From assembly GCA_951406725.2 (NCBI GenBank), contig OX597826.1, positions 63,612,001 to 63,676,000 of the forward strand: a DNA stretch of 64,000 nucleotides. Direction: 5' to 3'. Origin of the DNA: Octopus vulgaris (Eukaryota). This document shows, piece by piece, positions 17,701 to 23,700 of the stretch. The position numbers were made by a program. Each line of letters opens with the position of its first letter. Position 1 is the stretch's first letter.

Positions 17701-20700
17701 GGGGTGGTGGCGACCCCTGTTGTACTCTTTCGCCCCAACTTTCTCTTACTCTTTCTTCCTGTTTCTTGGGTAACGCTGCGATGGACTGGCGTCCCGTCCA
17801 CCTGGAGGGAACACATACACCACAGAAACCGGGCCCATGAGCCTGGCTAGGCTTGAAAAGGGCGCATTAAAAAAGAAATGACATATGGTTTGGTTCCCAG
17901 ACACTTTATCGTTATGTTATTTTTCACTCTCACTTTACGAAACATTCATTTATCTGTTGTATGCATTTATATTGCAGCTGGTGAACAATAAGTTTGATGG
18001 CTACAGGTCGCCAACTGACCAGTCACTGCTTCACAGCATATCAGGTAACAACAAGAGTAACAAAAAGCTGTTTGACGTGGAAGATTAAATACCACACAGG
18101 ATACTTTGTATTTGAAAGTAACATTTTATCTGTTTACCTTCACTTTTTTTTTTAGTTCCTTTGCTGGGTTTCACATTATTCTGTGATATTCTTTTATTCT
18201 TTTACTTGTTTCAGTCATTTGATTATGGCCATACTGGATGTTGATGTACTTGACTCAATAGGTCTCCTCAAGCACAGCAGGTCACGTGCCACCAGCACAG
18301 AAGCCAGTCAAGGCGGCGCTGGCATCGGCCACGTTCGGATGGTGCTTTTTACATGCCACCGGCCACGTTCGGATGGTGCTTTTTATGTGTCACCGGCACA
18401 GGTATCACAACTACAATTTCCATTTGATATTTATTTTGATGTTGATGTACTTGACTCAATAGGTCTCCTCAAGCACAACAGGTCACCTTACGATCCAAGG
18501 TAAGCACAGCAGGTCGTTCTGCAATCCAAGGTGCTTTGGATGGGCTGGGGCTGTGCGAAACTGGTGCAGGAAACAGCCATGAACTCACAATAATAAAACT
18601 GTGAAGGTCTATAAACATCGGATATAGATTTACAAACTCTACACTCCAAATTAACTGTTAATAAAAAAAAATATGAAAAATATAAAGTAAAACAGATAAA
18701 ACTTGAACATAGTTCTTTTACTCTTTTACTTGTTTCAGTCATATGACTGCGGCCATACTGGAGCACTGCCTTTAGTCGAGCAAATCAACCCCGAGACTTA
18801 TTCTTTGTAAGCCCAGTACTTATTCTATCGGTCTCTTTTGCCGAACCACTAAGTGACGGGGACGTAAACACACCAGCATCGGTTGTCAATGCTAGGGGGA
18901 CAAACACAGACACACACATACATATATATATATACATATATACGACAGGCTTCTTTCAGTTTCCGTCTACCAAATCCACTCACAAGGCATTGGTCGGCCC
19001 GGGGCTGTAGCAGAAGACACTTGCCCAAGATGCCACGCAGTGGGACTGAACCCGGAACCATGTGGTTGGTTAGCAAGCTACTTACCACAGAGCCACTCCT
19101 GCGCCTAGTTGTTTATTTAATGAAACATGAATACAGTATTAAGTGTATGTCTTCAACCTGGTCGCTGGTACTTTATTCTGCTGCATCATATTGTTACAGA
19201 AAGCACTGGAAGATTTGCATTTTTTATTACATTTAATAAAAATCAAGATCGTTTATTATGCTTTGAAATCCATTTCAGATTTGTATTGATGAAACTGATT
19301 TAAATATGCAATTAATATTGATTGATTTGCAATCAAATAGTGTGCTGAAATTATGATTTCAAGTTGAAATTTAAAAAAAAGAAAATAATTTTTTTTTTTT
19401 AATTTGTTGTAGCAAGCAAATAACTACAGCAATATCAAGCATTGTTTCCATATTTGGAAATGCTTGTGTGAGTAAACAGTTATTTTCCCAGATTGAGTTA
19501 CAAGACATAAAAATAAATAAAAATCACTCATGATTAATCATTGATGCATGAAATGAGTTTATAGTTCAGAGTTTCCATTTTTTTTTTTTTTTTTTTTTTT
19601 AATTTTCTCAAGCCTTCAGATTCATAAGGTCAGTTATTTGGGTTCTATGGCATATAAGTGACTAAGATCTCAACATCCCCTCTGAATGGGAAACTGGACA
19701 ATTTTATGAGTCAAGGCCAGCAATTTTGACAGGGTGGACTCTGACCTTACCAGCTCTGGACAAACCATCCAGCCCATGCTGGCATAGAAAACAGATGTTG
19801 AATGATGATGATGATGTTGATGACGACGACGACGATGATGATGAAAGGAGAAGACAAGTTGATTACATGGACCCCAGTACTTGATTGGTACTTTATTTCA
19901 TTAAGTCCAAATGGATGAAAGACAAAACTGACCTTGGGAGCATTTGAACTCAAAATGTTATAGAGTCGGAAGAAATGCTGCTAAGCATTTTGTCTGATGT
20001 GCTAACAATTTTCTAACAAGGTAGAGGTTAGTGAGATGGACAGGTGCAGTTAGAGGTGAAGTACATTCAACAAGTCCAGAGGAGCAGAGATTATTGCTGT
20101 GGTGAATATAGAGATATAGGGAAGACAATTCTATAATAAGTAAAGGTTAAAGAGCATTGAAGAGGAAATGAGTTTGTTTTCTTATCTTTATAAAGCAACC
20201 AAGTCATACCACTAGGCTGCTTCATATGAGAGTGCAACAAACTTAAGTACTAAACAATGTGAGGTGAAAATACTGAAGCAATGGACTGGGTACCTAACTG
20301 CTAGACTACTTCAGGTAACATTGCAGCAATATATTGTGTGTTAAGAGCCAGCAGACTACTTCAGATGACATTGCAACAGATGGTGTCAAACCACTTACCT
20401 CAGATGACAACATCACAAACCTAACCACTGAACTACTTCAGACTGGATACCTAACCCCACGGCTCACCTGCTAGGTGGACTTAGAAGAGAGATACAACAG
20501 AGCACTATTCCAACATCTTGAGACAGTGCTGTTGCACACACACACACACAGAAACACAAACACATGCAGACTTATATACACACATGCTAAGAAAGACTAT
20601 TTTACTAACAGATTGGCATAATGTTGCTCAAAGACACACTCCAACCTGTGACCCACAGTAAAACTTCAACCCTTGGCCAATAAATGTTTTGTATCTTTTC

Positions 20701-23700
20701 TCTGACTTTTTCTACTTCTACTACTACTACTACTACTTCCACCACCACCATTACTACAACTAAAGTAGCCAATATTCCTTGGATCTGATTGGTCTTGTGC
20801 TAACACCATCCAAGCACCCTTGACTCACTTGCATCCCCTCCTCCTCCTCTTGTCACTCACATTCTTTCCACCCACACCAGGATTGCACTAACCAAGAGAA
20901 CGGGGTGAGAGGGATGGGAAGGAGAAGGAAGAGAAGAGTAATGAGCTGAAAGGAGAGGGAAGAAGTAAATGAGAGAAAGAGAAGAAAGAAGAAAAAAAGG
21001 AGATGTTGAAAGAAGGAGAAAGGAAGATAATGAAAGGCAAAGAGATGAAGGAAGAAACAGATGAAGACAAGGAAGAGGGGAAAGAAGATACAGGAGAAAT
21101 ATAAAGAAGTAAATGATGAAGAAAGAGAAGAAAAAAAGAAAAACAGTGCCTGCAGTAAAAACTACAAGAACAAGAAATTCAACAACAACAATATCCAACA
21201 ACAACAGTCATAAATCTAAGTGAGATCCAAGTAAATCAAATTGGATCAGAAACCTTCTAAAAATGGATGTTTGCAGTCAAGAGTGAAGTTTTAAGTGAAT
21301 TAATCTGTAGTAAGTCAACTGTTCAGGAGTGGTGCACTCTACTCCTTCAGCTAAAAATTACCATTCCAAGAGAGTTAAAATATCAACCTTCTCTTTGATG
21401 GCTCCTACATTTCATTGTAAAGAAAAAAAGACAAAAAAACCCCCAAAAAAACACAGAAAGAGCAGAGTGGTGCAGTGGAAATGTTTTGGACCCATAATCC
21501 AGAGGTCCATAGATCAAAATTACAAGGTGCAGGCATGGCTGTGTGGTAAGAAGTTCGCTTCTTGACCACATGGTGCTGGGTTCAGTCCCACTGCGTGGCA
21601 TCTTGGCAAGTGTCTTCTAGTATAGCCTCAGGCCAACCAAAGCATTGAGAGTGGATTTGGTAGGCGAAAAGTAGCCTGTCATATATATTGGGTCATCCCA
21701 TAAATAATGTGGGTTTTTTTTCAGTTGCATGAACTAAAAGTCAGAGGCGGACAAGTTAAACCACCTGCATCAACTTGTTATAAAAGCAGATAATAGTTTT
21801 AACTTTGTTCTTACTCTTAGTGCAATAATTTTTGCTCCTCTGGACTTGTTGAATGTACTTCACCTCTAACTGCACCTGTCCATCTCACTAACCTCTACCT
21901 TGTTAGAAAATTGTTAGCACATCAGACAAAATGCTCAGCAGCATTTCTTCCGACTCTAGAACATTTTGAGTTCAAATGCTCCCAAGGTCAGTTTTAACAG
22001 TTATTTTTCCAAAGCTCTAATGGAAGTGACTAAGGAGTATATCTGGCATATTTTGCTTTATGAGTTCAATAAAGGCAACAACACAACAGAAAGTGCAAGG
22101 AATATTAATGCAGTATATGGGGGTTGGACAATAATTGCAAGCCTGTATCAACGGTGGTTCCAGAAATTCCAAGCCAGAAACTACAACCTAGAAGATGAGC
22201 CTCATCCTGTAAGATCTGTAGAGCTCAACAAGGATGTCCTGCAAACCCTGGGCCAGCCTTGACACTATCAATCACCTTGAGAACTACGTTAAGGAAAAGT
22301 GAGTCTGTGGAGTGTTCAGCCATGTGCATGTTGATTTCATGGGCCAGCTGTTCCATTGATTGGATCAACAGGAACACTCATTCTCAGAACTGACACAGTG
22401 CAGGTTTAGCCCTCCCCATCCGATCACCCTGATCAGTTCTGAATGAGCAGACCAATGGACAAAGGCATTCAGCTTCAGCCATTATCTCTTCTTATTTTTT
22501 TTTCAGTGCATCTCTGACCACATTATCTAATATGCCATTCCTTGGCTGCTATTTCTAGTAGTTCAAGTGGCCTTGTTGTTGTTAAAGTTGTTTAGTCCCA
22601 AAATCAGATCTGATTAAACAGCCATATACAAAAGTATTCCAGCTTCAACCATCACCTTTTCCTTTTTTGTGTGTGTTTCCCTAACTACACTATCCAATAT
22701 TTCCTTCCTTCTTTGGCTGCTATTTCTAGCAAGTCAAATGACTGCATAGAAATTCATTACCAGGTTGTTGGTGGATAGCAGAAAAATTACAACCTTTTAC
22801 TGAACAAGAGGATTTACTACTTCTAAGCAGACTTGGTAAAGTATTTTAAGAGATTAACAATGATTTTTCTGAGATTATTTAAAGCAAAGCAGGCTTACAG
22901 AAAAGAATGATTACTTTGTCATTTCTGGATTAATGCAGCTAGCAAGTTCACTCGGTGCACATGAGACCAATTAGGGAACTGCTGTGTAGTTGCTTGAGGG
23001 GCTAAAAATAGCAGTCAAATCACCTTCGGATCAAACCCAACCATCTTACAAAAGAGGATGGTACATTGGATCATATAATCCAGGATACGCTATATCTGGA
23101 TGAAAAGATGAGACAGGCATGCCCGGAAAGCCTTTGATCATAGTTCTACTTGATTAGAGCTGAACTGGATTAAACAACATCAATTAAGTGTTCGAGACTA
23201 ATGTCTTATTATCCTTTTATTACCCTGAGGTTGATAAACTAATGGTTTTTAATTTAAGCACAAGACCAGTAATTTTGAGGGGAGAAGGTCGGTTGATAGC
23301 TATTTCTTTATTACCCACAAGGGGCTAAACACAGAGGGGACAAACAAGGACAGACATAGGTATTAAGTTGATTACATCGACCCCAGTGCGTAACTGGTAC
23401 TTAATTTATCGACCCTGAAAGGATGAAAGGCAAAGTCGACCTCAGCGGAATTTGAACTCACAACGTAGCGCAGACGAAATACTGCTAAGCATTTCGCCTG
23501 GCGTGCTAACGTTTCTGCCAGCTCACCGCCAGTTGATAACAGGTCACTTGATAGCATTTACTGCAGTACAATATCCTGCATGGCTGAGTGGTAGGATGTT
23601 GCACTTATGATTGCAAGATCGTGGTTTCAATTCTTGGACTAGGTGGTGCATTATGTTCTTCAGCAAGACACTCCATATCACATTGCACCAGTCACTGAGC

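What the first reader, a model, noticed from the sequence alone, without database searches (positions are those of the whole stretch)
19924..21995. 163-bp near-perfect inverted templated duplication forming an intronic dsRNA stem
Seen: 19924-20086 and 21833-21995 are reverse complements with only 2 mismatches, ~1.75 kb apart. The copied segment straddles a SINE fragment and its unique flank, so it is not an independent transposon insertion. The right copy sits inside a mariner fossil, and ATTATTGC homology continues just past the junction (20090-20097 versus 21822-21829). Inference: a recent microhomology-mediated template switch. In the pre-mRNA it is the most perfect long duplex I found, so a prime ADAR hyper-editing or endo-siRNA substrate.
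Basis: partly seen in the sequence, partly recalled or inferred. Interest (0 to 1): 0.7.

Follow-up and report, generated by a model that had tools for sequence, protein, structure and literature searches.

The report
Inverted local copy forming intronic hairpin
A 174-base stretch of an octopus intron was copied backwards into a dead mariner transposon 1.7 kb away, so the gene's pre-mRNA can fold into a long near-perfect hairpin; this is a real but ordinary kind of structural mutation.

Summary
Arms 19924-20097 and 21822-21995 are reverse complements over 174 nt with 4 mismatches and no gaps (E 1.9e-82), separated by 1724 nt. It is the most identical long repeat pair in the window.

The left arm is the end of an old SINE-like repeat (at most 79% identical to any other copy in the window) plus 64-87 nt of flank found nowhere else in the window. 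The right arm ends 24 nt upstream of the start codon of a truncated mariner (HTH_48, E 3.8e-15).

The locus lies in a 23.2-kb intron of an MTMR6/8-like gene on the minus strand, in Octopus bimaculoides or a close relative.

Best reading: one recent local templated insertion. A 3' end folded back or switched template, primed at an 8-nt (10 of 12) homeology, copied about 163 nt and rejoined without homology.

In the modelled transcript, 170 of 174 arm positions pair in register, so the structural requirements for ADAR hyper-editing are met. Editing, small RNAs, genome-wide copy number, polymorphism and the mariner's pre-insertion sequence could not be tested here.

This is a large, long-range member of a known mutation class, of modest interest.

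The parts
19924..20097 (.). Left arm, the inferred source of the copy: SINE end (19924 to about 20010-20030) plus 64-87 nt of flank unique within the window
   Evidence: 174 nt, 4 mismatches. SINE homology runs continuously across 19923/19924 in this copy; 20011-20097 has no other match in the window.
21822..21995 (.). Right arm, the inferred inverted copy, inserted upstream of the mariner start codon
   Evidence: sequence beyond 21995 does not continue the SINE.
21822..21833 (+). Junction homeology: 10 of 12 nt match the source, including the 8-nt GCAATAAT. This is either the priming microhomology or the end of the copy with two substitutions.
   Evidence: mismatches at the positions pairing with 20087 and 20089. 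(clustering P 0.02-0.04).
20098..21821 (.). 1724-nt spacer, the loop of the RNA hairpin: microsatellites, a purine-rich stretch, a second SINE-type repeat (21517-21688) and the putative mariner 5' end
19844..20030 (.). Old SINE-like dispersed repeat that contains the first half of the left arm. There are 22 partial or full matches in the window at 69-79% identity. The right-hand limit is uncertain (20005-20030).
   Evidence: No tRNA-like hit in Rfam or ARAGORN, so the label 'SINE' rests on size and copy number.
21688..21821 (+). Putative mariner 5' end (terminal repeat and 5' UTR), starting after a TA
   Evidence: Inference only. 134 nt plus the 24 nt after the arm gives a 158-nt leader, which fits a simple insertion. 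No other copy and no matching 3' terminal repeat in the window.
21996..22300 (+). Mariner fossil: 24 nt of leader, start codon at 22020, then about 80-90 codons of transposase N-terminus, after which it is lost
   Evidence: HTH_48, 56.2 bits, E 3.8e-15. (P0070 residues 1-77 align to 22020-22250 at 69% identity); no catalytic transposase domain downstream.
8755..31992 (-). 23,238-nt intron of the MTMR6/8-like gene that contains the whole structure
   Evidence: AG and GT boundaries; the flanking exons are consecutive in P0003
31993..32109 (-). Upstream exon (39 codons, GRAM domain start), identical to residues 10-48 of O. bimaculoides MTMR8 isoform X2
   Evidence: PH-GRAM_MTMR6-like, E 4.8e-17
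8592..8754 (-). Downstream exon (residues 49 to about 102; 53 of 54 codons identical to P0003)

Best explanation
This is a single, evolutionarily recent, local templated insertion.

**Event (inferred)**
- A free 3' end arose on the + strand inside the 5' leader of a dead mariner, near 21821-21833. It came either from a resected double-strand break or from a stalled replication fork.
- That end folded back, or switched template, to + strand sequence 1.7 kb upstream. It annealed through the GCAATAAT / ATTATTGC homeology (10 of 12 nt).
- It was then extended for about 163 nt across 69-87 nt of unique intron sequence and into the end of an old SINE.
- It dissociated at 19924 and was rejoined to the mariner at 21996 without homology.

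**Result**
- The mariner now carries a reverse-complement copy of 19924-20097.
- Both arms lie in one 23-kb intron of an MTMR6/8-like gene. The pre-mRNA can therefore form a 174-bp stem (perfect runs of 36, 22 and 103 bp) closing a 1.7-kb loop.
- That stem has the shape of a substrate for promiscuous ADAR editing. It probably has no selected function.

**Shown versus inferred**
- Shown: the repeat, its boundaries, the SINE-plus-flank composition, the mariner open reading frame next to it, the intronic position, and the predicted fold.
- Inferred: the direction of copying, the priming site, break versus fork, and editing.
For: - **Repeat:** 174 nt, 4 mismatches, no gaps, E 1.9e-82, sharp ends.
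- **Not a transposon copy:** the left SINE is at most 79% identical to the 22 other matches in the window. In an alignment of the two arms with 18 other copies, all 18 diverge from each other right after the SINE terminus, while the arms stay identical to 20097. 20011-20097 has no other match longer than 15 nt.
- **Left arm is the source:** SINE homology is continuous across 19923/19924 in the left copy and stops dead at 21995/21996 in the right copy.
- **Right arm is an insertion in a mariner:** HTH_48 in 21960-22259. The closest relative, P0070, aligns from its residue 1 to the ATG at 22020. Without the 174 nt, the leader from the TA at 21686-21687 would be 158 nt.
- **Junction asymmetry:** 8 nt (10 of 12) of homeology at one junction and 0 nt at the other. 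Two of the 4 mismatches lie in the terminal 11 nt (P 0.02 for that end). This is expected if those bases belonged to the recipient.
- **Recent:** 2.3% divergence between arms, versus 21-31% between the host SINE and its relatives.
- **Geometry:** it matches event type 3-2-1-4 of the four-point template-switch model, which creates an inverted repeat (PMC5453318, passages).
- **Fold:** in a 2272-nt minus-strand RNA, 170 of 174 arm positions pair in register. Duplex energy is -316 kcal/mol.
Against: - No outgroup, second individual, long read or genome-wide copy count was available, so neither the empty site nor the two-copy status is shown.
- 21688-21821 was not shown to be mariner. No other copy, no 3' terminal repeat and no catalytic domain occur in the window.
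- The microhomology can be read as part of the copy, which leaves both junctions blunt. The clustering test is only marginal (P 0.04 for either end).
- The copied fragment (163-174 nt) and the distance (1.7 kb) are larger than the template-switch events in the papers read: fragments of 28 and up to 83 bases (PMC10710096), and PMC5453318 explicitly models short-range events only.
- The identity of the two halves of the left SINE to other copies neither supports nor excludes a mosaic.
Confidence: 0.65

Rival explanations
1. Both arms are copies of an unrecognised low-copy composite repeat (SINE end plus adjoining sequence) that is dispersed in the genome and happens to have two copies here.
For: Only 64 kb could be examined. 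31% of the window is already repeated within itself, and several two-copy repeats of unknown family exist.
Against: The two arms are 97.7% identical, while no other repeat pair of at least 100 nt in the window exceeds 91%. The left arm boundary at 19924 falls inside a continuous SINE copy rather than at an element end. Closest relatives lying 1.7 kb apart is what a local copy predicts.
Confidence: 0.1
2. The arms are what remains of a larger, older inverted segmental duplication that was later trimmed by deletions and insertions.
For: The mariner is itself truncated, so the region has suffered other rearrangements.
Against: Similarity ends abruptly at all four arm ends, with no weaker homology beyond. 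An old duplication would not be 97.7% identical. Mariner coding sequence starts 24 nt from the arm.
Confidence: 0.07
3. Assembly artefact: a chimeric or fold-back read introduced a false inverted copy.
For: Inverted chimeras joined at short homologies are a known artefact type (general knowledge). No read data were available.
Against: The arms differ at 4 positions, whereas an artefactual copy should be identical. The copy sits cleanly between two stretches that fit one mariner leader.
Confidence: 0.07
4. Reverse polarity: the right arm is the original. A gene-conversion tract that started in SINE homology overwrote the left SINE end and ran on into its flank.
For: A conversion tract starting inside SINE homology would also leave the SINE in register at 19924. 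The comparison of the two SINE halves does not discriminate.
Against: It needs a pre-existing truncated SINE in exactly the right orientation inside the mariner leader. It also needs a tract ending in non-homologous sequence. At 19983 the left arm carries the SINE-family majority base and the right arm the minority one.
Confidence: 0.05
5. The arms are the terminal inverted repeats of one 2.07-kb fold-back or TIR transposon (19924-21995).
For: Long terminal inverted repeats around an internal region are the layout of fold-back elements.
Against: There is no target-site duplication at the outer ends. The left 'terminus' lies in the middle of a continuous SINE copy. The interior holds an unrelated SINE and a mariner leader.
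Confidence: 0.03

Closest known systems
Template-switch mutations, four-point model type 3-2-1-4 (Loytynoja and Goldman 2017, PMC5453318; de novo miRNA hairpins, PMC10710096)
   Same: [quoted passage not shown] This creates a new inverted repeat, and hence an RNA hairpin, in one event. Many such hairpins lie in the sense strand of host-gene introns (passages).
   Different: Published cases seen here involve fragments of tens of bases (28, and up to 83) at short range. This one is 163-174 nt, copied from 1.7 kb away, giving a long stem with a kilobase loop rather than a miRNA-sized hairpin.
Snap-back synthesis in break repair (SD-MMEJ) and fold-back priming at double-strand breaks (PMC2943611, PMC5728401, PMC10622511; search listings and abstract starts only)
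   Same: A 3' single strand primes on itself at a short homology, and limited synthesis produces an inverted templated insertion. The second junction may be blunt. This matches the asymmetry seen here.
   Different: Insertions made this way are usually short and templated close to the break (recalled, not read). Fold-back priming in yeast gives large inverted duplications, not a small insertion.
Inverted SINE pairs as ADAR hyper-editing substrates (Porath et al. 2017, PMC5625713)
   Same: Two inverted similar sequences in one pre-mRNA form long dsRNA. Octopus shows the strongest hyper-editing signal and an unusually high fraction of loci able to form long near-perfect dsRNA (passages).
   Different: Here about half of the duplex is unique sequence, and the arms are far more alike (97.7%) than any SINE pair in the window (at most 91%). 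The four differences make each arm separately mappable.
Filler DNA in internally rearranged DNA transposons (abortive gap repair; recalled from the Ac/Ds and P-element literature, not read here)
   Same: A defective transposon carries a foreign segment copied from nearby host sequence.
   Different: No internal deletion at the insertion point is evident (the leader length fits a pure insertion). Nothing links the event to transposase activity.

Membership tests
Template-switch / templated inverted insertion | The inserted fragment is the reverse complement of nearby sequence on the same molecule | tested here: met
   174 nt, 97.7% identity, 1724 nt away, E 1.9e-82
Template-switch / templated inverted insertion | The source is continuous with its own context; the copy is not | tested here: met
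   the SINE alignment runs through 19923/19924 in the left copy and stops at 21995/21996 in the right copy; sharp ends.
Template-switch / templated inverted insertion | The copy interrupts a sequence that was once contiguous | tested here: inconclusive
   The right flank is mariner. The left flank (21688-21821) is only inferred to be the mariner 5' end, because there is no second copy to compare.
Template-switch / templated inverted insertion | Microhomology at the switch points | tested here: inconclusive
   8 nt (10 of 12) at 21822-21833 if read as recipient sequence, and 0 nt at 21995/21996. Clustering of mismatches has P 0.02-0.04.
Template-switch / templated inverted insertion | The ancestral allele lacks the copy (outgroup or polymorphism) | not testable with these tools
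Short-range template-switch mutation as catalogued (tens of bases, same fork) | Fragment of tens of bases with source and target within a short distance | tested here: not met
   163-174 nt copied over 1.7 kb, versus 28 and up to 83 bases in PMC10710096. PMC5453318 does not model long-range events.
Independent SINE insertions forming an inverted pair | Homology confined to the element; divergence typical of the family | tested here: not met
   Homology extends 64-87 nt beyond the SINE terminus. 97.7% identity versus at most 79% to other copies.
Fold-back / TIR transposon | Target-site duplication, and termini that coincide with the element ends | tested here: not met
   No direct repeat flanks 19924 and 21995. 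The left end lies inside a SINE copy.
ADAR hyper-editing substrate | Long near-perfect intramolecular duplex within one transcript | tested here: met
   Both arms lie in one intron. 170 of 174 positions pair in register in the minimum-energy fold of 2272 nt. Longest perfect run is 103 bp.
ADAR hyper-editing substrate | Clusters of A-to-G mismatches in RNA reads | not testable with these tools
   No RNA-seq access
Hairpin-RNA / endo-siRNA locus | Small RNAs of about 21-22 nt mapping to both arms | not testable with these tools
   No small-RNA data
mariner (Tc1/mariner) element | Transposase with an N-terminal HTH and a catalytic domain, terminal inverted repeats, and a TA duplication | tested here: inconclusive
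   HTH_48 is present. There is no catalytic domain in 150 of 159 ORFs of at least 75 aa, nor in 51 short + strand ORFs of 22150-25500. No 3' terminal repeat. It is a 5' fragment only.

The most novel reading that the evidence does not exclude
Long-range fold-back copying of unique sequence plus adjacent SINE ends may be a recurrent process in octopus genomes. It would then be a distinct source, beside inverted SINE pairs, of the unusually abundant long near-perfect dsRNA that feeds cephalopod hyper-editing. This locus would be a young, datable example. The palindrome at 63-447 has the same layout (repeat-family core, arms unique within the window) and would be an older one.
Probability: 0.12. 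Interest if true: 0.55.

Novelty: new member of a known kind. Interest (0 to 1): 0.27.

Why it matters
The locus shows how a single mutation can make a long, nearly perfect RNA duplex out of mostly ordinary intron sequence. It does so in an animal group known for massive RNA editing.

About half of the stem is unique sequence, and the arms differ at four positions. Reads can therefore be assigned to each arm without ambiguity. This makes the locus a clean natural test case for how octopus ADAR (and Dicer, if it acts) treats a 174-bp duplex with a 1.7-kb loop.

It is also a clear, large example of a templated inverted insertion, with one homeologous and one blunt junction. Beyond that it is most likely a neutral structural variant.

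Tried and rejected
- **RNA-mediated copy carrying ADAR edits:** rejected. The four differences, read source to copy on the + strand, are A>C, A>G, G>A and G>A. That is no consistent A-to-G or T-to-C signature. There is also no poly-A tail or target-site duplication.
- **tRNA-like head of the SINE:** not detected. Rfam gathering scan of the window: 0 hits. ARAGORN: 0. Rfam E-value scans of a young copy (16100-16450) and of 19700-22100 gave nothing except a chance SCARNA7 match, E 0.43. The SINE orientation is therefore left open.
- **Mosaic test of the left SINE:** uninformative. Identity of 19856-19923 and of 19924-20005 to 18 other copies gave rho -0.17, P 0.49.
- **Protein-database proxy for copy number:** uninformative. 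The 58-aa open frame over the right arm found no candidate, but it is not a gene, so absence says nothing.
- **Rest of the mariner:**
  - Pfam on 150 of the 159 open frames of at least 75 aa (the last 9, from 59923 onwards, were not sent) and on 51 + strand frames of at least 22 aa in 22150-25500 found no further transposase domain.
  - blastn-short found no inverted match to 21680-21821.
- **Role of the crossing inverted SINE pair (18936-19109 / 21522-21688, 80%) in guiding the switch:** rejected on geometry. Extending that pairing leads away from the left arm.
- **Not done:**
  - The bacterial/archaeal genome-contig scan, because it is irrelevant to an octopus locus.
  - Closed collections were not used.
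  - Genome-wide copy number, polymorphism and orthologous loci stayed unchecked.
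Full report
**1. Observation**

The window has 64,000 bases, no N, and about 37% G+C. It contains an inverted repeat with arms at 19924-20097 and 21822-21995.
- The arms are 174 nt, 98% complementary, with 1724 nt between them.
- blastn against the whole window gives 97.70% identity, 4 mismatches, no gaps, E 1.9e-82.
- Base by base, the mismatches are at 19960 (A versus C), 19983 (A versus G), 20087 and 20089 (G versus A, both). Similarity ends abruptly at all four ends.

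It is the same object described as two pieces.

Among the 1866 repeat pairs found in a window-wide self-comparison, no pair of at least 100 nt is as similar. The best SINE pairs reach 89-91% over 223-232 nt. Shorter pairs near 95% are a (TA)n run.

**2. What the arms are made of**

The left arm begins inside a dispersed repeat of about 230-280 nt.
- This repeat has 22 other full or partial matches in the window, at 69-79% identity to this copy.
- I aligned the two arms with 18 of those copies (those with E at most 1e-8 that reach the element end). The family similarity ends about 20005-20030, after which all 18 copies differ from one another. The two arms stay identical up to 20097.
- 20011-20097 has no other match in the window longer than 15 nt.

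I call it SINE-like from size and copy number only.
- Rfam and ARAGORN find no tRNA-like part.
- Its resemblance to the tRNA-derived octopus SINEs is recalled, not tested.
- SINEs make up 11.6% of the O. vulgaris genome (PMC13282606, passages).

**3. Which arm is the original**

In the left copy the SINE alignment continues without a break across 19923/19924. In the right copy the sequence beyond 21995 is unrelated to the SINE.

The right arm is followed, after 24 nt, by an ATG at 22020. This opens a frame with a Mos1-type HTH domain (HTH_48, 56.2 bits, E 3.8e-15).
- A search of 1.84 billion representatives found 768 relatives at E up to 0.001.
- The closest, P0070, is 69% identical and aligns from its residue 1 to residue 1 of this frame.

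Upstream of the arm, 21688-21821 begins just after a TA. Together with the 24 nt it would give a 158-nt leader, which is about what I recall for mariners. This fits a pure insertion of 174 nt into the mariner leader.

That last step is inference, because there is no second copy of this mariner in the window.

The mariner is only a 5' fragment.
- Similarity to transposase fades near 22300.
- No catalytic domain was found in 150 of 159 frames of at least 75 aa, nor in 51 short + strand frames of 22150-25500.
- No 3' terminal repeat was found.

**4. Gene context**

A frame at 31906-32199(-) matches the GRAM domain of MTMR6-9 (E 4.8e-17).
- The exon is 31993-32109(-), with AG and GT boundaries.
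- Searched on its own, it found 67 proteins at E up to 0.001 among 69 candidates. The best named hit is myotubularin-related protein 8 isoform X2 of Octopus bimaculoides (P0003).
- tblastn of P0003 on the window places residues 9-49 at 32112-31990 and residues 49-105 at 8754-8584. The other 8 hits have E above 1.
- The second exon is 8592-8754(-).

The two exons are consecutive in the protein. The 23,238 nt between them (8755-31992) are therefore one intron, transcribed from the minus strand, and it contains both arms.

Exon identity is 39 of 39 and 53 of 54 codons. This points to O. bimaculoides or a close relative.

I searched the exon singly and did not join exons into a spliced model for any search.

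**5. RNA structure**

I folded the minus-strand RNA of 19824-22095 (2272 nt).
- The minimum-energy structure pairs 170 of the 174 arm positions in register.
- The two arms alone give -316 kcal/mol.
- The perfect runs are 36, 22, 103, 1 and 8 bp.
- The transcript arms hold 46 and 58 adenosines.

Octopus has the strongest hyper-editing signal among the species surveyed by Porath et al. It also has an unusually high share of loci able to form long near-perfect dsRNA, and most hyper-editing is tied to such structures (PMC5625713, passages).

The structural condition for ADAR targeting is thus met. Editing itself, and any small RNAs, were not testable.

**6. Mechanism**

The layout is that of a switch-and-return event of type 3-2-1-4 in the four-point model, which creates an inverted repeat (PMC5453318, passages).

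The two junctions differ.
- At 21822-21833 the recipient and the source share 10 of 12 nt, including 8 in a row.
- At 21995/21996 they share none.
- Two of the four mismatches fall in those last 11 nt (P 0.02 for that end, 0.04 for either end). This is mild support for reading them as original mariner bases that served as an imperfect primer.

The model I favour has these steps.
- A 3' end in the mariner leader folds back on + strand sequence 1.7 kb upstream. That sequence is either its own resected single strand at a break, or a template at a stalled fork.
- The end is extended for about 163 nt and released.
- It is then joined bluntly to the other side.

The data cannot separate break repair from fork switching.

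The event is larger and longer-range than the template-switch cases in the papers I read: 28 and up to 83 bases (PMC10710096, passages). For snap-back repair I saw only search listings and abstract starts.

**7. Age**

Arm divergence is 4 of 174 (2.3%), or 2 of 163 (1.2%) if the homeology is excluded. The host SINE is 21-31% from its relatives.

Using the calibration quoted for O. vulgaris repeats (PMC13282606), this is roughly 3 My, with a range of about 1-8 My. It is a rough inference.

**8. Rivals**

A dispersed composite repeat, a trimmed larger duplication, an assembly artefact, reversed-polarity gene conversion, and a fold-back transposon are each less likely, for the reasons given in their entries.

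**9. Verdict**

The feature is real and the structural reading is sound. The functional reading is plausible but untested. It is a large member of a known class of mutation, of modest interest.

Noticed in passing
window 63-447: A 385-nt near-palindrome (79% over 393 nt; outer arms 71-194 / 317-440 are 124 nt at 87% with 122 nt between). Its core (about 179-342) matches a dispersed repeat family, but its outer arms have no other copy in the window. The layout (repeat fragment plus unique flank, inverted) is the same as the finding, but it is older and has a short loop. It could be a fold-back duplication or a palindromic element.
   Followed up: partly
window 7317-7545, 16149-16381, 23297-23530, 62175-62400: Four copies of a younger subfamily of the same SINE-like repeat, 88-91% identical to each other over 223-232 nt. 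These are the most similar transposon copies in the window.
   Followed up: no
window 18936-19109 and 21522-21688: An inverted pair of a second SINE-type repeat (80% over 174 nt). Its pairing would cross the 174-nt stem like a pseudoknot, so the two duplexes would compete in the pre-mRNA.
   Followed up: partly
window 31746-31968: A SINE copy just downstream of the GRAM exon, in the intron. It appears to be absent from the unspliced contig behind the unnamed protein P0002 of a related octopus. P0002 aligns to 32229-31969 and resumes at 31730-31644. This looks like a lineage-specific insertion.
   Followed up: no
window 22432-22740: Two direct copies of about 138 nt (71% identical, 34 nt apart) immediately after the truncated mariner. 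They match no other sequence in the window. Their nature is unknown.
   Followed up: no
window 11902-11952 and 12706-12756: A 51-nt inverted repeat at 90% identity, 754 nt apart, low-copy in the window. These may be the terminal repeats of a small non-autonomous DNA transposon.
   Followed up: no
window 49856-50134 (-): An open frame with a weak C2H2 zinc-finger match (zf-met 22.6 bits against a cut-off of 21.2, E 1.3e-4). It may be an exon or transposon remnant upstream of the MTMR gene.
   Followed up: no
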